A stretch of DNA of 64,000 nt, from contig JBHGNT010000012.1 in assembly GCA_043228905.1 (NCBI GenBank), forward strand, positions 16,182,001 to 16,246,000, read 5' to 3'. The notes under the pieces are model-generated. The model made no database searches. It was given only the letters and a program-made list of their open reading frames with translations, and was not told the origin of the DNA. The DNA is from Azolla caroliniana. Taxonomy: Eukaryota; Plantae; Polypodiophyta. The position numbers were made by a program, and so were the translations under genes. Shown here in pieces: positions 8,669 to 58,874 of the stretch. Position 1 is the stretch's first letter; every line of letters starts with the position of its first letter.

Positions 8669-9467
8669 CGCCTGTCATTCTTCACATCTATACATTTAGT
8701 ATCTGATGCAGTGCAATGGATTCTTGTTGTAAGTGTTGGATTTGAAACAAAAATCCGATGCATTGCATTAGATTTGAAAAAAATACAAAATTTCCCCTAG
8801 TTTTCTTTTCAATCTTTTCATATAATTGCAAACTCCACAAATAATTTAAAAATGCAAATAAAAAATCAAATATGTGGACTACCAATGGTCCCCTCTTCCA
8901 TGGTAATGCATCTTGGTCCAAAACAAAGTTACAACAGGTTGTTTCTGAAATAAAGTTCTTAACATAACAACAAGCTAAGAACAATTATCTACATTTCAAG
9001 ACAAATCAATAACAGAATGGATTGCATTTAATACTAAGAGACACATTCTATATAAGTAGACATAAATTACACATTGTAAAATTTGTTCAATGGGGTACCA
9101 TTTTCTTAATTTGTAAAATCGTGGTTAATACAATTAAGTTTACATGGAATTCCATTCCTTATCTCCAAATTGGATAAAAGAACATGACAGATGGAATATG
9201 AAACTATTGACTTTCTTGTCATGAAAATAATTAATTGAGAGTTTTGGTATGTTTTAAGAAACCATGTATGCATGTGTCATACCATCATGAAATTGTGCTG
9301 AAATGAGCCATTGTTTAACATCTCCTCTAAAGCAACAAAGAGAACACGACATATTACCTGTTTCAAATGTCCCGGTGTTTTGTTCTTCCCGTCGGGATTC
9401 TGACCGAGTGTGTGGTCTCCTGCAACTAGGCGACATCCATCCTCCTTCTATTCGTTGTCTCTCATAG

Positions 9468-16800: not shown

Positions 16801-19297
16801 TCGCCGGAAGGTCAATCTACTCGATCAGGGATCTTTACTCAGGGTACGACCAGTTCCAACTAGCCAAAGAGAGCCGGTACATCACAACAATGCGAACTCC
16901 TCTCGGCTTAGTATGGATGTGTACCTTGCCACAAGGGGGGACAAACTTGGTGGCACACATGGTAAATGCAATGAACAAGGTGCTGAGGGATTGCATCCCA
17001 TACATCACCATGCCATTCCTAGACAATATCCCAATAAAAGGGTGTTCGATGGAAGAGAAGGACGAGACAGTTGGGACGGATGGATGTCGGAGGCTTGAAA
17101 GGGCAAGGTTCACCTTCTCTAGAGAGAAGTCGGCGTTCGGGAAGTTAGAGATCCTAGAAGTCGGGCACATGTGTGGGCCCTACGGCTGGAAACCGTCTCT
17201 GGCAAAGGTAGAGGCAATCTCCATCATGAAGGAAGAATGCAAGTCGGTAACGGAGGTGCGGAGGTTCCTGGGAGCATGTGTGTTTTATCACATCTGGATT
17301 CCGCATTACGCGCACATAGCAAAGCCACTTTACGGCTTGTTAAAGAAGGGGCGTAAGTTCGAGTGGGGGACGGAGCATGTAGAATCAGTGCGGAGGTTGA
17401 AAGACACACTTGTCATGGCGCCAGCACTCCGGAAAGCGGTTTACGGCAAGAACGTTCCAATCTATGTAACCGTGGACACAAGCCCAACCGGGAAAGGATG
17501 GGTGATCAGTCTGGAAGATGAGGACGGTACGAGATTCCCTATCCGGTTTGGGGCAAAGGTACTTAGCGAGCGATAGTGAGGATACTCCCAGGTTAAGCGC
17601 GAACTCTGGGGTATTGTTTCGGCAATCAAGGCTGACAAAGACTATCTAATTGGGATGGAGGTGATAATTGAGACGGATTGCCTGTCGATCCTCGGTATGG
17701 TTTCCGGATGCACGACTCCAGACCTGGCGATGCTCAGGTGGATCGCTACATAAAGTCCCTGAATCCGGAGATACGACACATATCTGGAAAGTACAACACC
17801 ATGGACGATATGCTTTCGAGAGCGAGGTTTGACAACGAAGACGACATGGTTTCAGAAGACGAAGAGGTCGGTGTGGACTTCTTCGAGTCAACGCACGTGA
17901 CAACAAGGGCAGGGAGCACTCCGGTGCTAAGCGAGTTCAACGAGAGAGAGTATGATGGGGAGTGGCTCCATATTGGAAGATTCCTCAGGACGATGACGTT
18001 GGATACCACGTGGACGAGAGATGAAGCTAACCGGATCCGGAGGAAAGCTTACCGATTCTTCCTGCGGAACAGGAGCATTTGGAGGCACCCAAAGAAATGA
18101 GGCAACGTCCCACTACGTGTAGTAGCAAGGAAAGAGGAGCAGGAGGCGCTGCTTGCGGCGTACCACGAGAGTCCCTGGGCCGGACACCGCGGGACTTGGG
18201 CCACCTTCGAGAAGCTGAAGGAGAAGTATTGGTGGTTGGGGCTATACCAGGATGTGCACCAGTTCGTGACAACGTGTGAAAGCTGCCAGATGCACTCCGC
18301 AATACGGCATCGGGATGAGCTACACCCAACCTACCCGCCAACCGTCCATTTCAAGTGGATGGTGAACTTAGTAACGATGTTGATGGGAGTAGGGCAGATG
18401 CGATACCTAGTGCTGGCGCGGGAGGATTTGACGAACTAGGTGGAGAGTCGCGCACTACAAAACAAGACGATTACGGCAGTCTGCCGGTTCCTGATTAAAG
18501 TAGTATGTCGGTATGGGTGTGTAGGGAAGATCATGGCGAACCAAGGAGAGTTGGACACGCAGGAAGCTAAGGAGTTGTTCCATCGGTTAAGATTCAAGCT
18601 CTCTCTCACTACGGCGTACAATCCAGAGGCGAACGAGAAGGTAGAGCGTAGACACGGGCCAATCGTGAAGGCACTAGTACGAGCATGTGAAGAACAGGTC
18701 GGGAATTGGCCGCGGCTCCTCCCTTACGTGTTGTGGGCGGACCAGACTACGCACAGTTTGGTAACCGGGTTCATGCCAGCACAGCTGATGTATGGGCAAA
18801 AGCCGATTATGCTGGTAGAACGAATGATCTCCTCATGGGAGGCGATAGATTGGAGGGGCGAGATGAGCCGGGAAGAGCTGTTGGCGGCACAGATTCGACA
18901 ACTCGAGTGAAGACCGGAGGACGTGGAACAGGCAAAGGCAAAGTTGCATGCAGCAAGGTAAAGGAACAAAGACAGGTTCGACCGAACACATCAACTGTGG
19001 CCAAAGAAGATCGAAGAAGGCGACTAGGTGTTGGTGTACGACAGCAACCTCGACAACCAGCACAAGGCGACACGCAAATTCGCGAGGAGGTGGTTCAGGC
19101 CCTACGTCGTAACAAGTGCGAACGACAATGGCACCTACCATCTTGCAGAGCTCGATGGGACACGGTTAGCAGTACCGGTAGCCGGGAAGTGGATCAAGGT
19201 GTTCAAAAAGCGGCACGAGGACGAGCCGGACCCGGAGAGTGAGAACGACAATGACGATCAGTTCGGAGCAAACGAAGGATCGGGGAGCGACGAGTAG
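13839..19297 (+). pseudogene. Gypsy gag-protease (to 15882) and RT-RNase H-integrase, many stops and frameshifts
   Basis: CIWCDVAGHNRRDC knuckle; ALIDHGSEINLM protease; KYKIVDRKVRP, LEPSSAPYS, DLYSGYDQ, LPQGGTN, PFLDN RT; VTVDTSPTG RNase H; GH..KYWW..CESCQ and YNPEANEKVERRH integrase. Confidence 0.93.
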
Positions 19298-19370
19298 AGG
19301 CGAGCCCGTTTCTCCGGTAACTATTCCTCTCCGGCGCATACCGGTGGATCCGCGGTTTGGTGGGGGCGGA

Positions 19371-19901
19371 TGTCGTGGAGAAAACCGGCCATAGGAGGAA
19401 ATGGGGGAAAAAGATGCAGGAACGAACCCTTACGCGTGGCAGCACTATTCATTAAGTTGTACATAACTAGGTTTGATTCAGCCGATGTAAATATACTAGG
19501 TAGTACGCATTAATTGTCTAGGGAATCCAAGCATATCTCTGTCCGACAGGACAAAGGATAAATGCATGTAACCGGGGGTGTAATGGTTTTCCTCGGCGTC
19601 CTATAAAAGGGAGGGGAAAGGACTGATACGGGGATCGCGTATTCTAGAAGGATGAAGTGTTGTCGAACTGGGAACCGAGCTCTCTCTCCTCTATGTACCT
19701 ACCTTCTAATCAGTCTTTGCAGGGTTTCTGTGTCTGTTGCTGGCTAGCCGGTTGTAACCGAGAAAGTTTTGTAAGGAAAATTGTCGTTGTAATTGAGACT
19801 CCTTGTGTCTTCTTGTCTGCGTTTTCCCCACTGTGTGGGCATGTATTTGACTAATCTGTGTACGCATAAACGATTCGATCATCCGGTGAGGGCTGCCTGC
19901 A

Positions 19902-19967
<66 letters not shown>

Positions 19968-20039
19968 TTCCTACACTCCTTGGTTTAGGATCCCCGTGAT
20001 CCCGCCTTATTCCTTACGCGCAAACGTAGCAACACGACA
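19371..20039 (+). repeat. 3' LTR of gypsy
   Basis: Direct repeat of 13099-13763, ends CACGACA. Confidence 0.95.
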
Positions 20040-24254: not shown

Positions 24255-27200
24255 ATGTATCAGTCCACATTCTTTCGCAGATCTTCTTCTTCTTCTTCTT
24301 CTTCTTCTTCTTGGATCCTTTCTGCTTCTTCTCTGGGTGACCATGCCTTCTCCTCGGTTCACACAAGTAAGTGTTTCAGTAATTCATCAGAAAAATCAAT
24401 CAATCCATTGGTTGCTTGTTTCATTTCCAAAAAATTTACATTTTTTTCTTTTGTATGCTGAAAGACTCGTCCTTCTGTCCGTGCATTTTTTTTTTTCCTG
24501 TGTCTGCGTGTTTTTTTGTTTTTCGTTTATTTTACTGTTTCTCCACCACGTATCCATGTTTTTGTTGGAATTTTATGTTGAAAATTTGAACTTTCTCCTT
24601 GGCTAATCGAGTGAATCAGGGTTTTAACTTATAGATTTCAGGGCTTTGGTTATCTGTACCGCTGTGTGCTCCATATCAAGTTTTTTAGTGAATTATCTAA
24701 GAAATCTTATCCTTTACTCAAGGCGTTACTTCAGATAACCCATGGTTAGTTATCATTATTTTAACGAGATGCTTTATTGAAAAGGAATCTTCAATTTCGG
24801 GTCGATTGTGTGCATAGCATGAGTTTACATATTATATTTGGATACATCCGAGCAAATGTTTCCAAGATCAGTTACAATTTACCCTGGGGAGGGGGGGGGG
24901 GAGTTAGTTATATTTACAGCAAGGTAACAAAGAAAGGAGTAAAATATCATTCGTTTTGATCTTCTGTTTCATCAACCAGAAACATGTATTTGACTGTAAC
25001 AAGGTTTTGAAACTTAATCTTTTACAAAAGTTTTTTTAATTTTTTTTTTTGATGTTATGTTTGATCAATCAGAATCACATGTTTAATCATCCCAAGAAGC
25101 CATGTTAGTTATCCTACATTAGAGTAAAAATGTTCTAAAACTCAATCCTTCATGACAGCATATCTTTTTGTTTTGGTATTGTATTTGATTTCTCTAGTTT
25201 GATTGTGTGCACAGCATTTTGAAAGGATTTTTCCATTAGATTGAGTGTACTGAAACACATTTTAAAAGGATGGTTTCTATTTCTATCGACTGGTACAGCT
25301 ATGTGAATTTGGTTAACATTGAGACATTGGGAACCATGGAAATCTTCCTGTTTTTAAATGTGATGTTTAAGAAAATGAAAAGCGGTTCTCAAAAAAGGCA
25401 TAAAGAACTCAAATTTTCTAATGACGAAATTGGCTTTGAATCCAAAGCTATAAAGGATTAGCTAAATATATCTGCTAGCATCATTGATTTTGGGAAAAAC
25501 ACTGAAACACTCCTCAAATTTCTTGACAGTCAAACCTGAAAAGAAAGAAAGAAAGGTATGATTTGATCTAGTAGCACATATAATTGAGAATAAAAGGAGA
25601 TGAATTGACTGTGGGCACTTGGGAAAATAACAAAAACATAAGGGCTTATAAGGACATGTGGAGGGATATTGTGGAAATAAAGAGAATATTTCAGAGTTTA
25701 TATTCCATATTGTGTTGTCTTGAATTCAGTATCTGTGTTAATCTATGAGGTAGTGGGCATGGCAGGAAATTTTCTAATATATGATGTTATGTCTTTGTGT
25801 ATTCTAGGAATACCAAAGGTGGTTCTAAAGAAAGGTAAAACCCAGCTTTTCAAGACTGGGAATCCAATGGTGTATAGTGGAGCAGTAGATCGTATAATTG
25901 GTAGACCGCCGCCTGCGTCTGGCGAGGCAGTTTTAGTCACGGATGGAGCATTGCATCCCATAGCTTGGGGTTTATACAATCCTTTTTCTATGTTCAGTGT
26001 TCGGATCATGGAAATGGAGGATGAGGTATCAAGGCAGGTCAAAACATTCCGTTTTTTAATTCATGGAAAAGTTGAACAAAATATAGTCTTATTAGTTTCA
26101 TGGAATTCCCAAAAGAATATCAATTGTGTTTCTTAAAATTCCCGTAAGTACCCCTGATTTTCCAAACTTTCAAAACCCCTCTCACACTACAATTTTTCTT
26201 TCTCTCCCCCTCTATGATTTCTCTTTAAAAGCGTGTGGCATATATGAAGATAAGCAGATATATGGGATTGTAGAGAGAGGATTTATCAATAGATAAACTA
26301 ATATCAAGATAGGTAATGATTAATATCATCCTCAGGTGTCAAATATGACCAATGGAACCAAAGCTGAACATTTTCCAACAGTGTATCTGGAGCTGATTAG
26401 TGACCCTCGATATGGTAGGTATGAACACATAGAGGGTTTATAGATAATAGATGAATAGAGAGATAGATAGAGTTTAGTATCATCCTCAGAAGTTAATATG
26501 ATCGATGGGACCATAGTGAAACATTTGCATGTGGCATGAGTACAGTGTATTAGTGACCCTTGATGCTCAAAATTTCTGTTAATGAATTTGTTGAGTTGAT
26601 TAGCAACTCTATATATTACATGTATGAACATTCATAGATATATAGAAATTGGAGAGAAAGAGGGTTTACAGATGGATAAATAAAGAGATAGATAGAGTTT
26701 AGTATTGTCCTCAGAGATTATTATGACTGATGGAACGAAAGTGAAACATTTGTAGATATATAACTATAGTAGAAAAAGAGAGTTTATAGATAGATGAATA
26801 AAGAGATAAATAGATTTTAGTATCGTCCTCAGAGATCAATGCGACTGATGGGACCAAAGTGAAACATTATCATATGGCATGAGCTCAGTTGATTAGTGAC
26901 CCTTGATGCTCAAAAATTTAACTAATGAAGGTTGTGAGTGCACATTATGGCAAAGGGAAATGTGCCGATAAAGACGAGGGAAATTGTGGAGAGAAATGTT
27001 TTGAGGGTTGGGGGGGAGGGGGCGGATTTGGGTTTTGGAAAATACTCCACGAAAACAAATGGGGATATTTTTCTAAAACAATTCTCAAATCTTCATTGCT
27101 TTCCTATATGATTAGTTTATCAAGGTAAGTGCTATTTTAGACTGAAGTTATGTTTTTCATCAATACATAGGGATTCCTCATGCTTACTAAGCATGGAGAA

Positions 27201-30200
27201 ACTTTTGGAGTCCAGAATTGCTGCTGCAATGGACTTACGAAAACGCTTGAGTCTCCCAGATGTTGATACAGATGTATATCGTCTTGTAAACAGCGAAGGA
27301 GATAGGCAAGTCTTTTTTCATCTTGTCTTCAAAACAATTCTTCTTTTATGATACAGTAGCTCATAAACCATTTGGTTATTTTAATTTCACTTTAAAACAA
27401 TGAGTTAACCATCCAAAGGTATCAATTTTCATTCTCATCTCATTCTCATGCCTTATGTAGATTGTCAGGGCTTATAGTGGACATCTTTGGGGAAAATGCA
27501 GTGGTTGCATCCTCGGCTGCATGGGTTGAGAAGTTTAGAACAACCATTGAAGCAGTACTTAAGCATACAGTTAAATGCAAACATGTATGTTGGAGGCCAT
27601 CACGTGAGATGCTAAAAGAAGAAGGAATAGAGTCAGAGAGTGTTCAAAATGACTCATCCATAGCCGTTGGTACTCTTGATATGGTCGAGGTAACCCTTTC
27701 CCATCAAATCTGCTCAATGAACTATCCGAAGAATCAGTTTATGATTTTAGGAGGCCTGAGTTTGGTATTGTAAAGGCTAAATGTATGGATAAAAAAGAGC
27801 TGACTTAAACAAATGTATGGTGTGAAAATAGGGGATTTTATTTTTATTCACTTTATCTATTTAGCTTAATATTGCATTTCCCTTGTAAGTTTCTGAATAC
27901 TAATTTCATCATTACTTCTAATAATAAAGAAGGGTCATTATGTGCTCTGCTTCATGTCTTCTATTTTCTCGAAGGTAGGTTTTCTGATGTTTGTCTACCA
28001 GGTAGTTGAAAATGGTGTTTGCTACAAAGCATCTTTAGACGGACAGAAAACTGGGTTCTATGCTGATCAAAGGGATAACCGATTTTGGTTGCAATCTGTC
28101 GCAAAAGACAAATCAATTTTGGATTTGTGCTGTTACAGTGGTGGTTTTGCCTTAAATGCAGCTGTTGGTGGAGCGTCTGAAGTAACAGGTAATAAGAGTT
28201 TTGGACTCTGTCTCTATTCTTACCATTTAGACAGTTGTCATAGTTTTCATTTTTTCTTTTGTTTACTTTGAGAGTTTCCTAAGTTGATTTTAACGTCAGT
28301 TCTACATACAGGCATATATTTAAATACATGCATCCATCCATACATGAATGCATCCGTCCATCCATCCATGTATGTATGCATGCATACATATATACATGCA
28401 TGCGTCATTCATACACACATTCATGTGATTGTGTTTGCATGCATGTATGGATGCATACATACAGTATTTTGAGTTAGTTTTTCATCTAGCATACATATAT
28501 ACATGCATGCATGCATACATACATACATCCGTGTATATATGTATGCGGCATTCATACACATTCATGTGATTGTGTTTGCATGCATGTATGGATGCATACA
28601 TACAGTATTTTGAGTTAGTTTTTCATCTAGCATACATATATACATGCATGCATGCATACATACATACATCCGTGTATATATGTATGCGGCATTCATACAC
28701 ATTCATGTGATTGTGTTTGCATGCATGCATGGATGCATACATACAGTATTTTGAGTTAGTTTTTCATCTATGTACATTTTTGTGTATTTGCTTTGTACAT
28801 ATACGCGCACGCACACACACAAGAACAAGAAGGTAAATAGTTTGCGTGGAATATCTAGAATCCTGATATATTAGTCTTGGTAGGGAGTAACTAGACATTC
28901 AGTGTATATATGAATAATGAATAACACATATCTTTGTCAGCAAGAGATCTGGGATCTTCTATAAATGACGGTGCCATGATGTCATCCATCATTCATAAAA
29001 TTATTAGTAGTGTTGAATTTCTATAATACAGAGCATGTAAAAATTGGTTTTTAAAAATTCGCTCTGATGGCAACTTCAATATAGTTTCTATGTTGAAGTT
29101 CAGGATTTATCTGAAATTTGCTATCAATATTTTGGCATCTCGTACACAATTGTTAGCATTAAGTCTTTAAATAAGTTTCTGTTGACAACATTTATCAGGT
29201 GTTGACTCTTCATCACCGGCAATAGAGCTAGCCATTGAAAACATGAAATTGAACAAAGTTAGCTCTAAAATTGTCAGCTTTGTGAAAGGTGATGTAACAG
29301 AGTATATGAAAGAAGCAATCTCACAGGGACGAACATGGGACATTGTAATTTTGGATCCTCCAAAATTAGCTCCGACTAGAAAGGTTAGTTATCACCTTCT
29401 GAGCAATGATTTTTAACAACAATTTCTGTAAGATCTTATTTTCCTTTCTCTTTTAAGTTTTGCATTCATAATTCTCATAATTTTAAATTATTTTATGCAT
29501 GAAGGAAACTCATCCAATTTATAAGGAAACCATGCCCAAACACTATCTTGCAAGGTCTTCTTACCAATGACTATCATAATAACATCGTTGTATTTGACAT
29601 TATATGGCAAGTTCTATAGCATTCTTAATGTATGTAGTGAAACTTTAGTGGGATTTTCTTATAATTTCCTACTATTTCATACTATTTCACTGCTAATTCT
29701 CTAATGATGCCTCACAAGTTTTTACTGCTATACAGAGAATCATAATAGCATAAAATGTTATTTAACATTAGATGATGCCAGGTTCTACAACGTGCTATGG
29801 GCATGTATCGGAACCTAAATACACTTGCGATGAAATGTGTTGAATCCGGGGGTTTGTTGATGACATGTTCATGCTCAGGTGCAATGACGCAAAGTGGGTC
29901 GTTCATGGATGTTCTTCTTGTGAGTCCTTTCCCCTTAAAATCCTCTTCATTTTGGCACGAAATTATTCATCAAATTTCACAATGTTAAGTTCTTTCTCTT
30001 TAAAAATCCACCCTTTTTATAGCATCTATGCAAATTCACTTTCTTGATGTTCTTTGTAAGGCTTCAGTCATAAAAATCTATTCATTCTAGCATTAAATAG
30101 TTCACTTAAATTTCACATGTCTGACTTGCATGTTCTCACACTGGATCTCTCACTCAACAAGTAAAGAACAAACTTCAAGAGATACAGTTGTAGAATAGAT

Positions 30201-32372: not shown

Positions 32373-33929
32373 TTAAAATGCAATAGGGCAGTAAGATTTG
32401 GCGAAACCAAGCCGGTTCTTCTTCCTGTCATATTGCACAAAATAATTCTGTTGTATCAAGTTGCCAATCACAGATAACCTTGATGAACTGCCCAACATAC
32501 CAAGACACCTTATCTCTTTAGTAGGATCCAAAAAATAGTTTCTGGGAGGGGGCCTGAAGGTAGCCCCGCCTTTGAATATCATCGAGATCCTTGGAAACTG
32601 GTAAGGAGGTCTAAACCCTGACACATTATAGCATAGCTCAAGTCCAGCAGTAGGGGGTGCTAGAGGGTAATGGATGAGTTTTTGTAGAGTAGACACAATT
32701 CTATTGAATGCTGGTGATGGAAACATCGTTAGCGTTGTACCTGAATCAATAATTGTCCCTCCATTGCCATTTCGATCTATCATCCAAATTGATGGATCTA
32801 TGTCTAGTGATTGAATGCCCACCTTTATGGCCTCAAGTTGGATGTAGTATAAAGTATCCAACACTGGGTTTTGCAGAAAAGGTGTGAATCGAAGACGGGA
32901 TGTTAGGTTCTTTCTAGGATCTTCACCCAACACGAGTGCACTCCGAAGTTTCCTACTAAAAAAGCTAGTGAAGCAATAAGAGAATTTGCCTCCAAACATG
33001 AACCCAACTTGTGTGGAGAATGAGATGGGACCTTGACCGAGGCCTAGGACACCCCCTCCTCGTGCTATGTTACTTCCCGTGTTATTAGTACCACATCCCA
33101 AAGCCACGTTTTCTATCATCACTCTCTTCTTTGCGGGAGCGCGGGCGGTTTGCAAAGTGACGGTGTCGTACCCGTAAAAGCCGTTTGTCTCGGACAAATC
33201 GCTATATCCATATGCATATGTGCAGCTCGAAGGGGAGCTATGATCGCAGCTAGCATTGGCGGGGGGCGGGACGTAGTTACATTCTCGATCTTGGCACGAT
33301 ATAGGCGTAAATGTGGAGGAATTCTTCACATAGAAGACTTGGGTGGGTGTGGGGGCAGTCGATTGGTAGGTTCTAGAGGCGGAGCACCGTGCCCAGAAGA
33401 GGTCGCTCCCGGTGTCGACAATGAAGACGAGTCGCTTGGGCGGGGTGCCGATCTCGAGCTCAACGAAATAGTTTCCAGCATTTCCCGGGAATGCCGAGCC
33501 CGGAATTACTTTCCCTTGGACAATGTAGTTCTCGGAGTGCCGGCCAATAGGTGGTGATGGTGGTGGCGATGCGGGACTTGGTGCTTCTTGTTGCAAGGAC
33601 TCGAAGCCGGGGTTGTAATTCGTTCCACGGATTAGTGGGGAAGATCCGGCCGAGGCTCCCCGAGGAGGGGTTTTGGAAGCCAAAAGCCTCTTCACCCTCA
33701 TCTCATCCATGGTGACCAAATCATTAATCAAACTTACCTTCATGCCCACATTTTGTGGTTTGGGCAAAGCAGCTACTGGAGATGGATGATAGGAATAGCC
33801 CAAAGCACAACATAGTAGTAGTAATGCAAGCATGCTTAGGAGATTAAAGTTGATGTGGAAGGCATGAGGAGGGCATTGAAGGCTAATGATTGTGGGTCTT
33901 CTTCCTCTTCTCAGATGGTGATCCATCAT
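32373..33929 (-). CDS. Secreted A1-family aspartic protease (nepenthesin/CDR1-like), intronless
   Basis: GNYFVELEIGTPP, IVDTGSDLFW, Cys-rich insert, GCG, GVLGLGQGPISF, KFSYC, IIDSGTTLT, VIGNLIQQN. Hydrophobic signal MLALLLLCCALG (alternative start 33833). Confidence 0.95.
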   Translation of the reverse strand: MMDHHLRRGRRPTIISLQCPPHAFHINFNLLSMLALLLLCCALGYSYHPSPVAALPKPQNVGMKVSLINDLVTMDEMRVKRLLASKTPPRGASAGSSPLIRGTNYNPGFESLQQEAPSPASPPPSPPIGRHSENYIVQGKVIPGSAFPGNAGNYFVELEIGTPPKRLVFIVDTGSDLFWARCSASRTYQSTAPTPTQVFYVKNSSTFTPISCQDRECNYVPPPANASCDHSSPSSCTYAYGYSDLSETNGFYGYDTVTLQTARAPAKKRVMIENVALGCGTNNTGSNIARGGGVLGLGQGPISFSTQVGFMFGGKFSYCFTSFFSRKLRSALVLGEDPRKNLTSRLRFTPFLQNPVLDTLYYIQLEAIKVGIQSLDIDPSIWMIDRNGNGGTIIDSGTTLTMFPSPAFNRIVSTLQKLIHYPLAPPTAGLELCYNVSGFRPPYQFPRISMIFKGGATFRPPPRNYFLDPTKEIRCLGMLGSSSRLSVIGNLIQQNYFVQYDRKKNRLGFAKSYCPIAF

Positions 33930-34251
33930 CACATGGGAGGATAGAGAGATCTGAAGGGGATAAGGGTAGGGTGGGGTTGGGGGGGGGGGAGGAGGAGGAG
34001 GAAAAAAATGGGCTAAAGCTTTTGTGTATGCTCATTGGGAAGGAAAATGAAGGAAAGAAGATAATGCAATAATAAAAAAGTAGAATAAAAATGATTGATC
34101 CATGAGTAGGAAAAAGCTTTGGTTCACATTTTTGTTTTACTTTGAAGTAAAACTTGTTAGAACTCTAGTCTCAAGTTTCTTTTTTGTTTTTGATTGGATG
34201 TATCTGTCATGAGAAAATACCCCCCTCACGAGTCACTGGATGTACATGTCA

Positions 34252-48239: not shown

Positions 48240-50683
48240 TTACATGTTGCAAGTGCTTGCGAGAATCCGATGCAGAATGGTAGAAAGTTTCTTTACTCTG
48301 CGCGCAGCAAGGACACTTTTGTTGAGATCATCTTGACAAGAATGAAAGCAAAGTGAAAATGAATAGGCAAAACAAACCTTTGAGTCATTTCAGCATCAGT
48401 GTCGGTATTTTGCTTGTTGATGGTAACTGATAGTGTATCATTGATAGATTTTATACAAAGGCCAAGTTCATTCATGTCGATATCCTTGAGAAGTAACTCT
48501 ACATCTTTAGAGGAAACACTTTTATTCTTCATATTTCTGTACAGTGATGCCCTTTGTTGTTGATGTGGTGGTCTCCCCGGTAGCACCTGACCTATAATGG
48601 GATCATTGAATTCAGCATCGTTAACAATCCATCCATCAGAAATGCTCATTTCAAGAACACTTTCCATCCACTCTTGAAACAAGGCCTCGTGCCTATGAGA
48701 TTCATCAATCTTCTCTCGCATTATTTTGTCCGATTGAAACGAATTGAAATGACTTATCAAAGCATCCGGGTGTTGAAGGAGAGATACCTCATATTGAGTA
48801 AGAGTTCTGTTATGCAAACCTACTTTACTCTTGATTTGCACATTCTTCAACTCCCGGACCAATTTCGCCTTCGATAGCTTCAAAGAGTGTAAACTCTTCA
48901 CGCAATGTTTTACTTTACCATACATTATTAGTGCTTGTTGAGCTCTAGCCAATGTTCGCTTCTTCACATCTTCTACACTATCTAACGATTGAAGAACCTT
49001 GTTGACAAAAGCTCGCACATCACCCTCAGCTTCTCGACCAAGCTTTATAATTTCGCTTGAGGTAGAAACATCTCTTGGATATGGAGGTAATGGAGCTTTC
49101 AACAACGATTGCATGAGTGGTCCGATGCGACGAAGAAGAATTGTTTCGAACAAATCAAAATACCATAGGAACCACGCTATGGCTAGAAGCAATGGTCTAC
49201 TTTGTAATGCATCCTTTGTGAGAGAAAAGATGGGTGCATATTGGGGATATCCCCAGCAATGCATATAAAACTTCACAAATTCAAGTTTCTGTGCGATTAG
49301 CTCAGCATCATCATTGAAGCTTCCCTCATTCAGTTCACATTCTAGTGGACTATTTTTATCCAATAAATTAGACTTCGACAGAAGAGCTCGAGAGCTCGAG
49401 GGTTGATTCTGACGGACATTTGTAACATGAACAGGCTCATCATCACACATCCGATCAGAATTAGGCTTTCCATGAGCATTACCCTTTCTATGAGATTGCT
49501 TTTGTACATCTGAATAAAGCTTTCTTGTAACATTACCATTTTGTCCTGATGAATTTTGTTGTGAGGTATGGAAAAATCCATCAGAATGAGGGTTTTTATG
49601 AACATGACAGGTTTTTCTTGATGGATTTTTTCCTGCATTATGACAAGTTCGATCAGAATTAGGGTTCACATTAACATTAACGTTTTTTCCTGATGGGTTT
49701 TTTTCTAAGCTACCACCAAACTTAGGTTTTCTCTTAACATTATTGCTTCCTGATGGAATTTGTTGTAGGGTATGACGAAACAATCCACTAAAATTAGGAT
49801 TTCTATAAATGACATTCAAGCCTTTCTTGAAAGGAAATTTCCGTAGAGTAAGGAATATTTCATCGGAATCGGGATTTCTATTAACACTTGTATTTTCTCT
49901 ATGGAAAAGTTGTTCAGAAGTAGGGTTTCTATGAACTCGGAGGTTTTTGCACTTGCCATCTTTGACATTTAACTGATGAAGATTTTGATGAAATCCATAT
50001 TGAACATTAGGGCCTCTCTCTTTGGCATTATGGTATCTCTCTTTGGCATTATGGTATCTTTCTTTCACATTAGGGTTTTCCTCTTCAACACTGGAGTTTC
50101 CCTCCGTAGAAATAAGGTTTCTACATGACCCATTCTGAGATTCTTCTTCTTCTTCACCTTCACACATAAGCTTCTTGAAGCTTCTAATTCCATCATCGCG
50201 TGCATGAAAAGCCAAATCAGAAGGAACAAGAAGACTTACTTGCTCATCCTTCTTCTGTTTGTTCCTGTTGGGATCAGCTCCAACGGCAGAGCTTTTGGAG
50301 ACGGAGGAAGCAATGAGATGATGGAGAACGTGAAGAAGGGCAGGCGAACATCGTGGATCGTTGAACTTGGACCTTCTGATATGCTCTGGAGACAAAGGTA
50401 GCACGAACCCTAGTTTTGATACTGACACGAACCCAGAATCCGGTGCTAACCCTAATCCCAATTCTGATCTTGATGCAGATTCTCGCCCTGACCCTGACCC
50501 TAAATCTGATCCTGATCGTGATGCTGATCCTGATCGAAGCCCTAATTCGGATCCCGATCCCGATCCCGAACCTGAACCCAACCCTAACCCTAACCCTAAC
50601 CCTAACCCTAACCCTAATTCTTGAAGGAGGCCACAGACATGTTCGACACTGCCACGAACGTTCTTGCGATTACTCTCTTCCAT
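48240..50683 (-). CDS. TEDC1: Tubulin epsilon and delta complex protein 1-like (DUF4509/DUF4510), 2 exons, 787 aa
   Basis: LSPEHIRRSKFN..ALLHVL, FVKFYMHCWGYP, SRPLLLAIAWFL, LPPYP and HEALFQEWMESVL resemble TEDC1 motifs. Exon 1 50683-48378, 80-bp GT-AG intron, exon 2 48297-48240 (RVKKLSTILHRILASTCNM*), phases match. Confidence 0.8.
50582..50617 (-). repeat. (TTAGGG)6 telomere-type hexamer inside the TEDC1-like CDS
   Basis: CCCTAA x6 on plus, encoding (LG)n. Degenerate hexamers continue to ~50420. Confidence 0.9.
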
Positions 50684-50790
50684 TTTTTCTCTCTCTTCTT
50701 CTTTTTCCTCTCTCTAGAGCCTCACCAAATACAAATATTTATTTATTTTTATTTTCTTAGAGGCAGAGAGTAGGAAATGTAGTGCCTACA

Positions 50791-52990
50791 CCATATCCAC
50801 ATTTTGTAAGGCTTCGGGGGCACTGGTTAATTGGAACAAGTCCTTTGCATTTTGGGTGGGGGATGTAGAGCCTCCTCTATGGAGTCCACACCCGCAATTT
50901 CGATGGATACCATCAGGTTGTCCAGTTCGATACTTAGGGTGTACGATAGGTATTGATCTTTCAATGGAAAATCAAGTGGCACCCCTCCTATTGTCACTGC
51001 GGAAAAAGTTGTTGTTATGGAGTTCAGCCAAGCTATCTTTTGCTGGTCGGATTGTAGTGGCTAATCAGGTTTTATTGGCTTCAACATGGTATGTTTTGTC
51101 ATGTTGGATATTCTCCAAGTCATGTATTCTGAAAATACGTAGATTGGTTCGTAACTTCTTGTGGTCCGGTAAAACAGAAGGCAATGCTCGGTCCAAAGTG
51201 AAATGGGATGTTATTACCTTACCTCGCTCTAAAGGAGGATTAGGTATTATTGATCCAGTGGACCAATCCAGAGCATTGTTAAGTAAGTTGCTCGTTAGAG
51301 GATTTATGCCGGGGCAAGAGATATGGAAAGTATTATTGCTTGACCGTTGCTCAGATTGCTTTCCTCGCTTAGGTGCTCCCTGGTCGAAGGATGTGAATTG
51401 GATATTTAGGGAAAATTTCCGAGTACCTTCAGCCACTAGATGGGAAGACAAATTTATTAGGACATTATTTGCAGCATGGAAACAAGTACTACCTGGTTTG
51501 CTTCGCAATAAACCGAACCCCAAACATTATCTTGAGTATCTCAGACAAAAGATAGTTTGGAACCCGTTGTTTACAACATCAGATGGTTTTGTGTTGGGTT
51601 CTAGACAATGGTTATCGTGGGGAAAAATGACAGAAGGTCCCGCGAAAACAGTTCAGACTTGGAAAGAATTTTTATCGCGATCGTTGGAAGAACAAAAAGA
51701 AATCTTACGTAATATGCATGGCGGACATATAATGTACCAACAAATTCAAGAAGCTATGAGTAGACAACCCATACCACCCAATAACACTAACCATAGATGG
51801 ATTGGGGTTTTTTCAAGATTGGAAGTACTCTTGGCTGTTAAGGGTTATTCAAATGATAAGACATACCGGTTGTTTGAGGTGGATGAAACAAATCAATTGT
51901 CTCAGTCCGGGGAAATGGTGATAGATTACCCCTATGCCATTGAGCACAAGATAAGGATAATTGGATATGCCGATCGTAAATGGTATATTGATCCAATGAT
52001 AGAGGAAATAAGGACACATTGGAAGTTGTGGGTGTTAGCTAAAAGACCGGTATTCAGATTAGATTGGGACCCAATTGACTATCATTGGACAGATCCTTAC
52101 ACGGGTAACAAGTTCAATTTCTTCCAATATTCTGTACAGTTGGGAAGACATGTACTTTCAGATACACGTGATGTGGTACCAGCTGCATCTCAATATTGGA
52201 ATCAACAAGGTATTACTCCCCAATTCCTTGCAAAATTCTGGGCTATCTTATGGGCAAGAAAACAACAACACAAAATATTACATGTACAGTGGTTAGTTGT
52301 ACACAAGGCGTTGCCGGTTGGCACATGGTTGCATAGGATGGGAGTGTCTTCATGTTGTACTCGATGTCATTTACAAACGGAAACTCAAAAACATTGTTTA
52401 TGGGAATGCATTGATTCTCAACAGATATGGCAACGGCTCCTTAGAATTTTCGCTAATTATTTTCCCCCGTTGGTTCTCACTTGGGGCATGGTCGTTTGGA
52501 CATCACTTGCCCGTGATGTGTTTCATTATGGCATCGAATCTATGGACCATGGGTTTTACACTAAAAATGGAAGTGTTCGTACATTATCAATGATGTCATT
52601 ACAGTTTTCAGGAGTAAGGAAGGAAGTTCAGCCAATATGGGAGATATTGAGTAGTACCACTGTCTATCACATTTGGAAAGCTCGGTGTTCTCTCGTTTTC
52701 CATAATCTGAAAACACCACCTGCTGAAGTGATTTCTAATATTTGGTTAGAGATAGTTCATGCTTTGAAGGGTCAATGGGATGGTATAGTGGGAGATTCTG
52801 ATGCTAAAATTGCTCAACGGCATGAGTTTCTTATTATCTGGACAGCTACTCCATTTGTGACATCCAGGTACACTACTCCTTATTGGCATTTTCAGCCACC
52901 GAAATGGTTGTTTCCCCCGCCGATTACATAGAGGTTTAAAATCTTGTAATTTGTTTATACTAATGACAGGATATCTTCTTTAAAAAAAAA
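50791..52990 (+). mobile_element. 5'-truncated L1/Tx1-like LINE with poly(A) and 16-bp TSD
   Basis: TSD AAATGTAGTGCCTACA at 50775-50790 and 52991-53006. Poly(A) from 52982. ORF uninterrupted. Confidence 0.96.
50856..52931 (+). CDS. C-terminal part of LINE ORF2 (RT thumb to zf-RVT), open but N-truncated
   Basis: FCKASGALVNWNKS upstream in frame; RYLG, LSFAGRIVVANQVL, RNFLWSG, W..ITLPRSKGGLGI, CTRCHLQTETQKHCLWEC, HIWKARC. Confidence 0.92.
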   Translation: MGDVEPPLWSPHPQFRWIPSGCPVRYLGCTIGIDLSMENQVAPLLLSLRKKLLLWSSAKLSFAGRIVVANQVLLASTWYVLSCWIFSKSCILKIRRLVRNFLWSGKTEGNARSKVKWDVITLPRSKGGLGIIDPVDQSRALLSKLLVRGFMPGQEIWKVLLLDRCSDCFPRLGAPWSKDVNWIFRENFRVPSATRWEDKFIRTLFAAWKQVLPGLLRNKPNPKHYLEYLRQKIVWNPLFTTSDGFVLGSRQWLSWGKMTEGPAKTVQTWKEFLSRSLEEQKEILRNMHGGHIMYQQIQEAMSRQPIPPNNTNHRWIGVFSRLEVLLAVKGYSNDKTYRLFEVDETNQLSQSGEMVIDYPYAIEHKIRIIGYADRKWYIDPMIEEIRTHWKLWVLAKRPVFRLDWDPIDYHWTDPYTGNKFNFFQYSVQLGRHVLSDTRDVVPAASQYWNQQGITPQFLAKFWAILWARKQQHKILHVQWLVVHKALPVGTWLHRMGVSSCCTRCHLQTETQKHCLWECIDSQQIWQRLLRIFANYFPPLVLTWGMVVWTSLARDVFHYGIESMDHGFYTKNGSVRTLSMMSLQFSGVRKEVQPIWEILSSTTVYHIWKARCSLVFHNLKTPPAEVISNIWLEIVHALKGQWDGIVGDSDAKIAQRHEFLIIWTATPFVTSRYTTPYWHFQPPKWLFPPPIT

Positions 52991-53250: not shown

Positions 53251-55749
53251 ATGCTCACTTTTATTTGCTACCAAATAATAAAGAGACGCTTGTAGAGGAA
53301 TTCATGGTCACGTTTTCAAGTGGCGCGCGTGCGATCGATCTGCACCGTTAGATCTCTATCCACCAAAAAGCGTGCGCCTAAAACCTAGCTCGGCTCTGAC
53401 GAGCCTCTGTCACATCTAAACCCAGCTCCGACCATCTAATCCATCACATCTAACCTGGCCTTGACAAGCCTCTGTACAAGCTTTTCTGTCACACCTGAAC
53501 CTAACTCGGGTACTTGAACCTAACATGGTACCTGAATCTAACCTGGGTACATGCACCTAACCCGGTTGAAATTTTTGAAGAGGCGATTGTTTAAAAAAAA
53601 AGATAAGCTTACCCAAAAATATTGAAAATGTTTTCAAAAATGAAATTTCAAAGTTTCACACATAAAAACTCACCAAAACTTTCGTCCAACATTGAATTTA
53701 AACAAAATGTCAACAATTTTGGCCACCGATTGGGCTATACATGTTCAGAGATCGAAATCTCGGAGTAGTACATATACATACAAACTCCAGATACTACAAA
53801 CCTAAAAAACACATGATGTAATGTAATAAAAAACTTAAAGATCAAGGCTCTTGTTCAAAGGATGGTAAGATACACCCACAAATTTTGTAGCAATTTGCAT
53901 TAGAGTCTCTTTCAGTAGTCAATGTCAAACCATCATAATGCAAACACTGAACCTTCTTAGTCTCACATATAGGCAACCGCCTCTTAGCACGACGAGCACC
54001 TCCCTATAGTCTGCCGGTGTGTGTTTTGGTCGTGTTTGGGGAGCTGCCAATAAGTTTTTTTGAATTCCGACTCAAATAGAAATTGGAATTTATCCGCTAA
54101 CCCACATGAATCATCCATGATCGCGATTTCTAAATGAGAGCACTGTGTTAACGAGAGCAATATGGTAAGGTGAGTAATATGATAATGTGGAGCAATATGA
54201 TTGATGTGGTGGTTCAAATTCATGTGATTTTGGTAGCTTTGATTGTGTTAATTACTTCTGTATCTACAATGTAATTGTCCGATGGAGGTGGTTGTTTTAT
54301 AATCGTTGAAACAAAATCATTGCGCGTAGTTGGATCGAAACGTAACTATCCCCGAGTTAGGTGTAGACATACATTACTTTCTCGGGTTGGGGAAATGGTT
54401 ACATTAAACTTGCCCCGGGTTAGGTGCACACATACAATTATTTCCTGGGTTAGGTGAATGGTTACATTAAACTAGCCTCGGGGTTTGGTGTAGACATGCA
54501 TTACTTTGTTGGGTTAGGTGACAATATACAACAGATCATCGAGATTTATCAACATCAACATATAATCTTGTTTGCACAAAAAAAAGCAACACGTCATAAT
54601 GATGTTTATGGCTTAATATACACGAAAAAGCTACAATATCTACAAGAATTTATCAAAAAAGTCTTGGTTTGTATTGTAACATGTTCACGTTCACAAGTCG
54701 AAGGATCATGCATTCCTCTTCTAGATTCCTTTTATAATCTTGTGATTTCAAGTAATTTTCCGAAACTTGATACACTAGTATCACATGTTTTAAAAAACAT
54801 ATAATATTTGCTGATTTTTTGAGATTTAACAAGTGTCAAAATGATCATTTCTAAAATTGGATAGTTTTTCGATAAATGTTTAAACATTTACGGTCTACAG
54901 ATACGAAATGTAGTTTAACTTCAAGCAAATCACAAGGGTTAACTGAAACAAAGCACAAGTTAAGATTGTTAGATATAATCAATGATCAGCCTGAAGTTGT
55001 AAATCTATCCCCATATGTGCTCTTAGAGTGCACATTTTGTGATAACGCTCCAAATGAGGAGTGGCTAGTGTGCAACTCGACCATATGGGTTGATAAGGTG
55101 TTAATCTAGGAAACCGTAGATGTGTAGGACACTATGTATTTAGGAAAGAGCGAAATAGGTAATAGGATTGGCTAATCAAGTCAACTAGAATATTTTGTGG
55201 GCAAGTTACGATGTACTTAGTCTTGAAGTATGTGCCATTGACTTCAAGATAAATACTATCTAGCACTGGCCTATATCTAGGGAATTGGGTCATATTAAAT
55301 GACAAGTCAGTTGACAGAAAAGGAATATCTCCACTACTATCAACTGACTTGCACATTTAATGTTATACTCAGACCAAACATAGAATATAATCCACTTTCT
55401 TATTGAGTGGCTGGATTGATCATCAGTCCCCACTAATTTTGTAGTGAGCTGCTCCATATCCTATCTAAGCTCTAAGGTGTGAGCACATGGGTAAACTACC
55501 ATTGTGAGCTACTCCAATATGTAATAGAAGTTTGTTTTCATATATCCATCTCTGTAATTGTAACTCTATATACCTATCTAATTGATTCTCAATATTTCTA
55601 ACAAGATTAATGGTATCACCATCTTGAGGAGATGTCGGTTCCAGAAGTGGAAGTGACATCTATTGTTAGTGAAAATGTTTTACATATAAGAGGTAACACT
55701 TTAATCCTTAGTGTCATCAACATTTATAAATTTAGTGCTAATCAACATC

Positions 55750-55890: not shown

Positions 55891-57027
55891 CAAAACTGTT
55901 AAACCTAGATGTGAACCATCATTGGAACATATGACATTGTTATTAAGGTATCCACATTATTCTCCTCTTCTTCCTTTTGTGAAATCTCCTCCACAATTTG
56001 TGTAGTAGTATCTACTCCACATATGATGGCAACGGTAAGGTCCTCTAATAGCTCGTCGTCAACATCAAGTAGCTCCCAAGGTTCACTACCTAATGGAGGA
56101 ATAGGTTCATGAGATGCAGGTTGAAAACGTTCAGTATTTGCAATATGCTTGACCCTACTTCTTCGTCCTAATCTAGGCGTTCCCATAAGGGATTAATCCT
56201 CATGTTAATGAAGCTCACTTGCTCATCATCCTTTTCTAGTGCAACAATATTTCTGAATAGTTTCAATGCAAATGCAGATGTAGTACCTATTGACAATTTA
56301 AAATGAAGATTGTTTTAGCTAAACATAAACTATATTGATTTCTAAAGGCGTAGCAAATAAAGTTATAATAATTTACTCGAGCTGGAGAACAAACGATGTC
56401 GTAAAGATTTTCGGAACGGTGTGAAAATTGAATGGAAAGTATAAAATCGAGTGTGGTTCTTCACACACAACATAAAAAAATAATAGTGAAGATACTATTT
56501 TATACTAGTTTAATATCTTGGTACAAAAAGATGGAGTTCTTCAAGAGCTTTCGAATACACTTTACCACATAAGAAACAGACAACTAAGTGGCAAGTTATG
56601 TGGGTATACAATTTGCGAAGAAGAAGAGAAAAAACAAAGCTACGATATATCCCACATAGACAGGACAAATAAGGATCCCAGATTATATAAGCAGAGCCAA
56701 AATCTATTACTTTGTGTTTATGAGTGGATCATAGAATGTTCAAGGTGACTTGAGCTAAACTAATCAAATGAATTGGTGTGGCCTAACTACTTGTAAAGGT
56801 TTTGGCCGAGCGGACGGAGCCGACGAGGCTGCAACCGGTGATTGAGATCGGGACCGGATGGCGACAAACAGGATCGGATCGGGATTGGATTGAATCGGTT
56901 GGGACAAACAGGACCAGACAAACGGATCAGTCGGTTGATCGTGGTGCATGGTGTTTTGAAGATTTTCGGTGTAAATACAAGACCAAAAGCCTAGTAGTAT
57001 TTTGTGTTTTAAAAGGGATATGAGCAA

Positions 57028-57461: not shown

Positions 57462-57515
57462 ACATACTATCCAATCTCCTTCGTTGGAGAAAATTTCAAA
57501 TGACAAATATCAATA

Positions 57516-57905
57516 CTAGTTAGAATGTATTGATGGGCAAATCAAAATTCTCCATGTAAGATAAATATCTATCCCATGGCAACAAGATCTCAAGGCTTGT
57601 GCTATAGAGTATCCTTGATCCATGCTATGGAATACGACAATTCTCCATAAGGATGTAGTCTTCAACTGTATGTCAAAATCTGTCATAAAATCTTTCACCA
57701 TCTTCTCAAGTTTTTTGAACCTAAATGGTTCATCATCGTATGTCGATCCAACCATACAAAATTCGTATGGTATGTCAACAATAAGTAATATGTATTCCTT
57801 CATTGGCAATATGTGTATCATCTCAACCACATCACCATAGTAGACATTATAGTATAAATATTGGGTGATATCCTTTGCTGAGATATCAAGCTCAACTAGG
57901 TTTAG
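57516..57905 (-). pseudogene. N-terminal (catalytic) half of a beta-class N4C/N6A DNA methyltransferase-like domain
   Basis: 129 open codons: ..VYYGDVVEMIHILPMKEYILLIVDIPYEFCMVGSTYDDEPF..WRIVVFHSMDQ..LTW. Matches the N6_N4_Mtase pattern IYxGDxxExxxxLPxxSxDLIxxDPPY (DIPY at 57765-57776). Confidence 0.7.
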
Positions 57906-58178
57906 CTATTTAGTCAACCATGTAACTTAGTAGTTACATAATTAGAATCTAGTTACAAGTGTTGACGTTAAAGCCTTAAATAGGATTTTGTACTTGAGTG
58001 GGATACGTTCTAGATCCTCCACTACCAAGTTCATTGAATATAGAACTTACATCCTTGTACCTATATTCTCCTCACACATGTGCACCCTTGGACATGAGAT
58101 GTATATATATCACATAGTGGGTATCATTGTATTTTGATGCTTATTAATATAGAGAACGGTCTTTAGATACACTCTTGT

Positions 58179-58874
58179 TTGTTACTGGGAGCCGTCCGAG
58201 CACAGCCCAGCATGGATGAGACACGCATCAGAATACTGATCGAGAAACAACGTCAACACCTCACCAAAAAGGTCGAGGAAACATTAAGTCGCGCAGGAGA
58301 AGAATGGGCAGCCCAAGCTGCCGAATTGCATATTTTACGTGCCGACGCCGAGAACCAACGGAAGGAGGGCCGCGGCTTTTACAAAATGGACGAAGCCAGC
58401 ATACAAAACCTCTATGCAGATTTAACCGAGGATTACCAGTCATTGGCGAAATCTCACACCGCGGCAATCGAGCAAATGCTGGAGGACTTCAATGACGATC
58501 AGATGCTGTTTTGCCTGGAAGCAGAAGCCCTCGAACGAGAACGACTCGCAACCATCCCAACCAACCCTCCAACGGCCACAGAGCAGAAGGAAGAACCTCC
58601 CAGCGAGGAGATCACGGACACGGCACAGAAGGAACTCGCCCCGGCCAACAAACCTCTCTAGGACGCCCACACGGTACCAGATCCAGTCGAAGCGGAGGTC
58701 AGCCCCCTCGAACCCACACCACCACCAGATGAATCGGTCGCACCTGAGGCGGACGCTCGAGAGGATATGACACCCCCGAACCAAACTCAACCCCCCGCAC
58801 CGACAGTCCAACCAGACCACCCTGCCACCACCCCGGACCCCGAAAACATCCTCGACATCTTAGAAGAGGAATGA
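58179..58874 (+). CDS. Orphan retroelement accessory ORF (helical/coiled-coil, then Pro/Glu-rich), one internal TAG at 58659-58661
   Basis: GC-rich frame open for ~230 codons apart from one stop (ATG at 58212). Ends ENILDILEEE* about 100 bp before an LTR. Confidence 0.6.

What the first reader, a model, noticed from the sequence alone, without database searches (positions are those of the whole stretch)
57516..57905. Bacterial-style N4C/N6A DNA methyltransferase exon hidden in plant intergenic DNA
Seen: an AT-rich minus-strand frame of 129 codons (it extends upstream of the listed ORF start) reads VYYGDVVEMIHILPMKEYILLIVDIPY..WRIVVFHS..W. It has AG acceptors at its 5' side and a GTAAGT donor near 58050, so it looks spliced. 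Established: this is the N-terminal signature of beta-class amino-methyltransferases (PF01555, catalytic DPPY/SPPY motif IV before the SAM-binding motif I). Such enzymes are rare in plants, whose canonical DNA methylases are C5. Inference: a relic of an intron-containing, probably transposon-borne 4mC/6mA writer, truncated by LTR insertions on both sides. I could not find the FxGxG half in the window.
Basis: partly seen in the sequence, partly recalled or inferred. Interest (0 to 1): 0.85.

Follow-up and report, generated by a model that had tools for sequence, protein, structure and literature searches.

The report
Plant transposon's bacterial-type DNA methyltransferase relic
This is a broken copy of a many-copy plant jumping gene whose intact relatives carry, beside their transposase, a conserved gene for a bacterial-type DNA-methylating enzyme and an array of short palindromes, so the element likely puts a chemical mark on its own DNA, a design already described in algae.

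Summary
The exon is real and is the catalytic (DIPY) half of a beta-class amino-methyltransferase gene, though alone it hits neither Pfam nor PDB. The copy is dead and 5'-truncated and ends in a terminal inverted repeat (TIR) at 54678. Intact relatives (80 metagenome loci) are 6-8 kb TIR transposons with a Sola1-like DUF7869 transposase head-to-head with a spliced gene: ParB-like domain (weak support) plus methyltransferase. dN/dS is about 0.03 between families, and phased CGATRC-N3-GYATCG palindromes are kept even in non-autonomous copies. Homologues occur in Chara, Riccia, Diphasiastrum and Ginkgo. Likely mechanism: the protein binds the palindromes and methylates the element, more likely 6mA than 4mC; untested. 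The same architecture is published for Ectocarpus Sola1-1_Ec32, and a similar one for red-algal Plavaka. I found no paper on it in land plants, and this scan has already noted it several times elsewhere in this genome.

The parts
57568..57876 (-). Remnant of the motif-IV (DIPY) exon of the methyltransferase gene. 5' end cut off, a 5-codon and a 1-codon insertion, splice donor lost
57765..57776 (-). DIPY, the catalytic motif IV variant; aligns with DPPY of CcrM and RsrI (weak-scoring stretch)
57465..57499 (-). Remnant of the next exon (EIFSNEGDWIV, run-up to motif I). The KTNVN..NPYQKP part is deleted, as in subfamily loci L028, L039, L051, L078-L080
56394..57464 (.). 1,071-nt insertion with inverted TGTCGT..ACGACA ends (solo-LTR-like, high copy) that splits motif I; no clear target duplication
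56377..56393 (-). Rest of motif I, LFSSSS (DLFSGTG in intact copies), followed by a GT donor
56287..56376 (-). GT..AG intron at the same position as in intact copies
55931..56286 (-). Last exon (GTTSAFALKLFRNIVALEKDD.., end of motif I and motif II region, acidic tail), with an in-frame stop near 56169 and a frameshift near 56153
54968..55602 (.). Second insertion with TG..CA ends and an ATCT duplication (solo-LTR-like) in the element's 3' non-coding part
54678..54712 (-). Right terminal inverted repeat of the transposon (29 of 35 nt match the subfamily-A TIR; ends ..ATGTT)
57877..58186 (.). Unrelated high-copy repeat that cuts off the 5' part of the element and holds the GTAAGT at 58050 (not part of the gene; upper boundary approximate)
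9060..9379 (+). Right end of a second element of another subfamily (TIR 34 of 37 nt match to the L044 TIR)

Best explanation
The stretch is a dead, 5'-truncated copy of a Sola1-like cut-and-paste transposon whose intact relatives carry a conserved, spliced second gene for a bacterial-type beta-class DNA amino-methyltransferase fused to a likely ParB-like domain, which is predicted to bind the element's own palindrome array and would methylate the element's DNA, more likely at adenine. Shown: the element's anatomy (TIRs, head-to-head DUF7869 transposase, five coding exons, motif order IV then I), purifying selection on the methyltransferase, the conserved palindrome array, and the decay of the window copy. 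Inferred: ParB fold of the N-terminal domain, binding of the palindromes, catalytic activity, 6mA rather than 4mC (about 65:25, about 10 inactive), and the purpose: keeping the element transcribed or mobile against host 5mC silencing, as VANC does for VANDAL by another chemistry. The window copy itself makes no enzyme.
For: Family profile A3 hits beta-class 6mA enzymes: CcrM E 1.1e-8, RsrI 3.8e-8, MboIIA 3.1e-7, DpnA 1.1e-6. PF01555 is above cut-off in 3 of 5 longer homologues that match it, and in the L044 motif-I exon. Of 80 loci, DIPY in 64 (12 unreadable), NPYQKP in 50, DLFSGTG in 37. 7 of 9 loci with 4.2 kb or more upstream hold the opposite-strand DUF7869 ORF (E 1.7e-52), 5 without a break; its VLYVQLDNTARENKNSTV matches Sola1 HMM consensus nodes 81-97 by eye. 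TIRs flank both genes: L044 36 of 37, L040 32 of 34. NG86 dN/dS of the catalytic exons has median 0.033 (max 0.11) in the 14 unsaturated of 105 pairs from 15 chosen loci, against 0.3-0.7 for the window versus its own decayed subfamily. CGATRC-N3-GYATCG occurs 92 times in the loci against 0-1 in 20 shuffles, upstream of the ParB-like region in 14 of 18 loci that reach that far, and is kept in non-autonomous L028, L039, L078-L080. Spacings cluster near whole helical turns. ParB or Noc structures take 8 of the top 10 Foldseek ranks. The same design is published for Sola1-1_Ec32.
Against: No activity, methylome or expression data. Motif IV lacks the first proline (DIPY); Ginkgo and some others read DIPH. 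ParB support is below significance: Foldseek best E 0.57 on a model with pLDDT 58, VIA best Z 4.0 to an unrelated design, PHROG ParB E 0.099, no phage tblastn match. The ParB GxxR arginine (recalled) is not evident in GGSHS. The search patterns included PY, so its conservation is partly selected. All 80 loci come from one series of assemblies, many are collapsed repeats, and they are not independent. The palindromes could be transposase or host-factor sites. A 4-bp target duplication was exact in only 1 of 5 both-ended loci. A preprint states that streptophytes lack abundant genomic 6mA.
Confidence: 0.6

Rival explanations
1. Same element, but the enzyme writes 4mC on the CG inside the CGAT/TCGA palindromes and so blocks host 5mC maintenance there.
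For: Every palindrome holds two CG sites; TCGA is a target of bacterial N4C enzymes close to rotifer N4CMT; beta-class enzymes include both chemistries; plant 4mC exists in Marchantia sperm.
Against: Motif IV starts with D, not S; known eukaryotic 4mC writers have SPPY. Solved N4C enzymes score E 0.03 to 1.4, against 1e-8 for 6mA enzymes.
Confidence: 0.2
2. The protein is a DNA-binding transposition helper. The ParB-like part loads at the palindromes and bridges or compacts the element for the transposase; the methyltransferase fold is weak or inactive and only binds or flips bases.
For: Non-canonical DIPY, and DIPH in some homologues. The ParB-like exon is as constrained as the catalytic exons (median dN/dS 0.043, 7 pairs). 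The array is phased and kept in non-autonomous copies. Retrotransposon DAMs gave no 6mA in E. coli.
Against: D and PY of motif IV, NPYQKP and DLFSGTG are kept across families whose synonymous sites are saturated, and largely in Chara, Riccia and Ginkgo homologues.
Confidence: 0.13
3. A host gene (for example a gamete methyltransferase like Marchantia DN4MT1) captured Pack-MULE-style and carried without benefit to the element.
For: The gene has spliceosomal introns; homologues are annotated as ordinary proteins in Ginkgo, Chara and Riccia, whose genomic context I did not see.
Against: Three subfamilies with saturated synonymous sites keep the same gene, orientation and palindromes under dN/dS of about 0.03. 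Captured passengers are expected to decay, as the window's own subfamily does. DN4MT1 has TSPPY.
Confidence: 0.05

Closest known systems
Sola1-1_Ec32 of Ectocarpus (PMC12477816, passages read)
   Same: Sola1 transposon with an opposite-strand accessory gene for a ParB-like plus N4C/N6A methyltransferase protein (1,104 aa; here about 1,000 aa from the exon lengths); self-modification proposed there.
   Different: Brown alga, 21.5 kb, against 6-8 kb elements in a land plant. The passages read mention no palindrome array or selection test. Sequence homology to that protein was not tested here.
Red-algal Plavaka accessory genes PAG2/PAG3 (bioRxiv 10.1101/2025.02.11.637652, passages)
   Same: DNA transposon with a PF01555 methylase, a ParB-like protein (HHpred best hit 7BNR, also among my Foldseek top ranks) and tandem inverted repeats proposed as self-targets.
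   Different: EnSpm/Plavaka transposase. The methylase is fused to SET and ParB to a 2OG oxygenase, in separate genes; here ParB-like and methylase are one gene.
Sola1 of ferns and mosses, e.g. Cibotium barometz cluster_4009 (PMC12973397 Table S2, 4 rows read)
   Same: The TIR listed in that row matches the L044 TIR at 16 of the first 19 nt (compared by eye); 4-bp TSD, 19 autonomous copies.
   Different: The table lists only the Sola1 domain; no methyltransferase is noted in the rows or passages read.
Beta-class 6mA methyltransferases CcrM, M.RsrI, M.MboIIA, DpnA (PF01555)
   Same: Motif order IV, then target region, then P.QKP and DxFxGxGT.
   Different: DIPY for DPPY; long N-terminal fusion; introns; transposon-borne.
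Marchantia DN4MT1a/b and bdelloid N4CMT
   Same: Bacterial-type amino-methyltransferases in multicellular eukaryotes.
   Different: Host genes with SPPY that write 4mC; no ParB-like domain reported, not transposon passengers.
VANDAL/VANC (PMC5735166, abstract and outline) and DAM-carrying retrotransposons (10.64898/2026.05.21.726589, part 1 of 5 and passages)
   Same: Element-encoded chromatin factor acting on the element's own repeats (VANC); prokaryote-like adenine methylase carried by a TE (DAM).
   Different: VANC removes 5mC and its targets differ between related elements, whereas this palindrome is shared across subfamilies. DAM elements are retrotransposons with an NPP motif, and DAM-LTRs are reported absent from Streptophyta.

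Membership tests
Beta-class amino-MTase (PF01555) | Catalytic motif IV before SAM-binding motif I | tested here: met
   DIPY exon, then NPYQKP..DLFSGTG, then GTT..ALEKD in intact loci; same order in the window
Beta-class amino-MTase (PF01555) | Profile match above the curated cut-off | tested here: met
   Ginkgo P0078 65.7 bits, P0100 30.5, Chara P0102 27.3, L044 exon 38.1 against cut-off 26.7; P0093 and P0117 below; window pieces no hit
Beta-class amino-MTase (PF01555) | Canonical (D/N/S)PP(Y/F) motif | tested here: not met
   DIPY in 64 of 80 loci; no DPPY or SPPY among the sequences displayed
Beta-class amino-MTase (PF01555) | SAM-dependent methylation of DNA | not testable with these tools
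   needs an enzyme assay or modification-aware reads
Eukaryotic 4mC writers (DN4MT1, N4CMT) | SPPY motif and closeness to N4C enzymes | tested here: not met
   DIPY; N4C structures E>=0.03; motif
Sola1 transposon | Sola1-type DDD transposase | tested here: met
   DUF7869 E 1.7e-52, Atlas 0.95 to DUF7869 clusters; LDNTARENKNS matches the Sola1 HMM consensus sDncagqNkns by eye, unlike the Sola2 sequences seen; nodes 57-66 (gRgsneias) match poorly; the HMM itself was not run
Sola1 transposon | Terminal inverted repeats around the genes | tested here: met
   L044 36/37, L040 32/34, L080 31/34, weaker in L038 and L064; right TIR in the window
Sola1 transposon | 4-bp target site duplication | tested here: inconclusive
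   exact in 1 of 5 both-ended loci, 3 of 4 letters in one more, none in 3; the contigs are often collapsed repeats
ParB family domain | ParB/Srx fold followed by a helical DNA-binding part | tested here: inconclusive
   8 of the top 10 Foldseek ranks are ParB/Noc but E>=0.57; VIA Z 3.6 or less for KorB, SopB, Spo0J, ParB; PHROG E 0.099
ParB family domain | Binds a parS-like palindrome, CTP-dependent clamp | not testable with these tools
   a candidate palindrome array exists; binding untested
Sola1-1_Ec32-type ParB-MTase transposons | Accessory ParB-like + N4/N6 MTase gene opposite the Sola1 transposase | tested here: met
   against the description (ParB part only weakly supported)
Sola1-1_Ec32-type ParB-MTase transposons | Common descent with the algal protein | not tested

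The most novel reading that the evidence does not exclude
Streptophyte Sola1 elements (homologous proteins from Chara and liverworts to lycophytes, likely ferns, and Ginkgo) run an ancient, self-addressed methylation system: a ParB-type clamp loads at a phased CGATRC-N3-GYATCG array, spreads, and writes 6mA over the element. This would be the first dedicated DNA 6mA writer of land plants, lineages said to lack abundant 6mA, and a programmable locus-marking tool.
Probability: 0.35. Interest if true: 0.8.

Novelty: new member of a known kind. Interest (0 to 1): 0.55.

Why it matters
If active, it gives a concrete and testable source of 6mA (or 4mC) in land plants, where such marks are disputed, with a named enzyme, a named target motif and many intact copies. 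It would extend transposon anti-silencing from removing host marks (VANC) to writing a foreign one. It also warns that PF01555 'genes' in plant annotations (Ginkgo, Chara, Riccia) may be transposon passengers rather than host epigenetic writers. The copy in this window is only a fossil.

Tried and rejected
Direct Pfam and PDB searches with the window peptide or the last-exon piece: no significant hit; the exon-only profile A1 also found nothing in PDB. 'Longer' homologue searches found none: 66 candidates; one search covered only 1174-3350 aa, so full-length proteins of about 1,000 aa were never searched by that tool. No whole genome is held, so copy number, empty sites and the missing 5' half could not be checked. 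No RNA holder was listed, which says nothing about expression. No relative of the transposase in viral contigs, and none of the methyltransferase in GTDB genomes by exact-peptide patterns. Phage tblastn gave only 23-31% identity methylases; the two translated read DPPY and DLPY, so no donor clade was identified and no tree was built. Single-sequence folding of the N-terminal domain failed (pLDDT 36). The transposase was not folded and has no PDB sequence hit. The window has no transposase, ParB-like exon or left TIR. The exact palindrome at 4169-4183 lies next to a copia-type ORF with no blast link to the element and was set aside. The splice reading with the donor at 58050 was rejected. A first TCGA-only reading of the arrays was replaced by the 15-bp motif, because L044 and L046 lack a TCGA excess. 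Bao et al. 2009 (Sola) is not held and Iyer 2011 was not read; either, or Repbase entries, may already mention a methylase in plant Sola1. bioRxiv supplements were closed.

Full report
Observation. The frame and the quoted peptide are there. Alone it has no significant Pfam or PDB match. A trimmed 104-aa query, however, found 57 of 57 candidates at 56-83% identity, and 65 relatives in the HMMER library. Longer relatives are named Ginkgo Gb_37443, Chara GBG86584.1, Riccia KAL3677677.1 and Diphasiastrum KAJ7514498.1. PF01555 passes its cut-off in the Ginkgo and Chara proteins and in P0100, falls below it in Riccia and P0117, and is absent from the Diphasiastrum protein, which holds only the DIPY stretch behind a P450. 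The window sequence (LTR-type and LINE-type ORFs, spliced plant-like genes) and these relatives point to a plant; a seed-free plant such as a fern is my inference.

The missing half is in the window. Three frames show GTTSAFALKLFRNIVALEKDD at 56287, which aligns to Ginkgo residues 547-580 (18 of 34 identical). EIFSNEGDWIV sits at 57497-57465. Loci L028, L039, L051 and L078-L080 run from about 57465 straight into 56393, and contigs of 3 of 4 host-like runs join the same two points. So a 1,071-nt insertion with TGTCGT..ACGACA ends splits motif I. The same subfamily has lost most of the NPYQKP exon. In the window, DLFSGTG has decayed to LFSSSS, the donor after the DIPY exon is lost, and the last exon has a stop and a frameshift. 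Homology ends at 57876. Beyond it lies a different high-copy repeat, which holds the GTAAGT at 58050 and recurs in unrelated positions of L039 and L030. The copy is dead.

The element. One metagenome scan gave 96 relatives, of which the best 80 were kept; all come from one series of assemblies. Intact copies have five coding exons, about 1,000 aa in all, and probably a short 5' exon. Of the 9 loci with 4.2 kb or more upstream of the DIPY exon, 7 carry an opposite-strand ORF of about 890 aa, 5 of them unbroken. L006 has none and L080 only a scrap. The ORF is DUF7869 (E 1.7e-52; Atlas). It has DGMD, LDNTARENKN and GHTHDHIDQ motifs, and the second agrees by eye with the Sola1 HMM consensus in the supplement of PMC5751038 (parts 58 and 59 read). 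TIRs beginning AACA enclose both genes in L044 (36 of 37), L040, L038 and L064, giving 6.0-7.8 kb; L080 is a 3.5-kb non-autonomous form. The window holds the right TIR at 54678-54712 (29 of 35) and the right end of a second subfamily at 9379. A 4-bp duplication was exact in only 1 of 5 both-ended loci. A published fern Sola1 with similar termini has a 4-bp TSD (PMC12973397 Table S2).

The enzyme. A profile of the family hits CcrM, RsrI, MboIIA and DpnA at E 1e-8 to 1e-6, and a solved N4C enzyme at 0.033. Its DIPY aligns to their DPPY, though that stretch scores weakly. Among the 80 loci, DIPY occurs in 64, NPYQKP in 50 and DLFSGTG in 37; most of the rest are cut short or decayed, and PY was part of the search pattern. 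Among 15 chosen loci, 14 of 105 pairs had unsaturated dS. Their dN/dS for the three catalytic exons has median 0.033; for the N-terminal region it is 0.043 (7 pairs). The window against its own subfamily gives 0.3-0.7. The gene is therefore kept by selection in living families and decays in the non-autonomous one. The N-terminal region looks ParB-like, but not at a significant level. An 18-sequence model (pLDDT 58) returns ParB or Noc in 8 of the top 10 Foldseek ranks at E 0.57 or worse. VIA gives Z up to 3.6 for ParB relatives, below an unrelated top hit. The Atlas points to DUF3723 and unnamed eukaryotic clusters.

A cis signal. Between the two genes, in what I infer to be the first intron, all three subfamilies carry CGATRC-N3-GYATCG palindromes. 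There are 92 matches in 315 kb of loci against 0-1 in 20 shuffles, and CGAT-N7-ATCG occurs 99 times against at most 5 for other spacers. The motif lies upstream of the ParB-like region in 14 of 18 loci that reach that far (one further match, in L006, is inside the gene). It is retained in non-autonomous copies of the window's own subfamily. The 58 spacings under 130 nt cluster at 31-32, 39-42, 49-52, 62-63, 72-73, 81-85 and 102-105 nt, near whole helical turns; related copies are not independent counts. I ran the spacing count after seeing an earlier scan note that called the arrays phased. The window copy lacks this part.

Mechanism. Most likely, the accessory protein binds the array as a dimer through its N-terminal part and methylates the element in cis, and non-autonomous copies in trans, which would keep them transcribed or mobile against 5mC silencing. 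Anatomy, selection and array are shown; binding, activity, base and purpose are inferred. D in motif IV and the PDB ranking favour 6mA over 4mC. The rivals are a 4mC writer, a non-catalytic transposition helper, and a captured host gene.

What is known. The Ectocarpus paper (PMC12477816, passages) describes Sola1-1_Ec32 with an opposite-strand ParB-like plus N4/N6 methyltransferase gene and proposes self-modification. The Bostrychia preprint (passages) describes Plavaka elements with a PF01555 gene, a ParB-like gene and inverted-repeat arrays. Both leads came through earlier scan notes or the search they prompted. The 2026 DAM preprint (part 1 of 5 and passages) covers retrotransposons and reports DAM-LTRs absent from Streptophyta. 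Iyer 2016 (passages) lists ParB-HTH-fused chlorophyte-type Dams, a different group. Also read, in passages: PMC8885841, the Marchantia preprint, PMC12344493, PMC3627910 (plus one supplement and a supplement search), PMC9033089, PMC9477723 and PMC10741241; VANC in abstract and outline only. Ten searches showed no paper on this gene in land-plant transposons. The original Sola paper was not held and may bear on this. The scan has noted the same family in at least eight other pieces of this genome; those are unreviewed AI notes and not support.

Verdict. A real relic of a transposon-borne beta-class amino-methyltransferase: a land-plant member of a design already described in algae, with an added, testable target motif. 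Interest 0.55.

Noticed in passing
window 9060-9379 (+): Right end with TIR of a second subfamily (L044 type) of the same transposon, next to a copia-type element; no left end found.
   Followed up: partly
window 4169-4183: One exact CGATRC-N3-GYATCG match just upstream of a copia-type pol ORF; no blast link to the element, likely chance (0.2 expected with one mismatch).
   Followed up: partly
window 25681-28271 (+): Exons of a spliced host gene that read like a PUA-domain, RlmI-type SAM methyltransferase ([22 protein letters not shown]; label recalled, not searched); unrelated to the finding.
   Followed up: no
window 32373-34031 (-): Intronless 552-codon ORF that reads like a plant aspartic protease (DTGS/DSGT motifs; label recalled).
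   Followed up: no
window 48293-52931: LINE-type 3' ORF with zf-RVT (50718-52931 +) back to back with an 806-codon minus-strand ORF that overlaps a proline-rich tandem repeat; the second ORF was not examined.
   Followed up: no
window 13099-20037 (+): LTR pair (TGTCGTGG..) around a decayed gypsy-type internal region; its ends resemble those of the 1.07-kb insertion in the methyltransferase gene, though blast did not link them.
   Followed up: partly
L007 3280-5883: A subfamily-B element with its own palindrome array is inserted in reverse into a subfamily-A element's methyltransferase gene.
   Followed up: no
P0102 (Chara GBG86584.1) and P0080 (Diphasiastrum KAJ7514498.1): The Chara model holds two ParB-like/methyltransferase units in tandem; the Diphasiastrum model fuses the DIPY exon to a P450. 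Both are likely gene-model merges over transposon copies.
   Followed up: no
PMC12973397 Table S2 rows 3204-3205: The representative sequences of the moss and fern Sola rows seem swapped relative to their TIR columns (the AACA.. start stands in the moss row), so the host of that AACAC-ended family should be checked.
   Followed up: no
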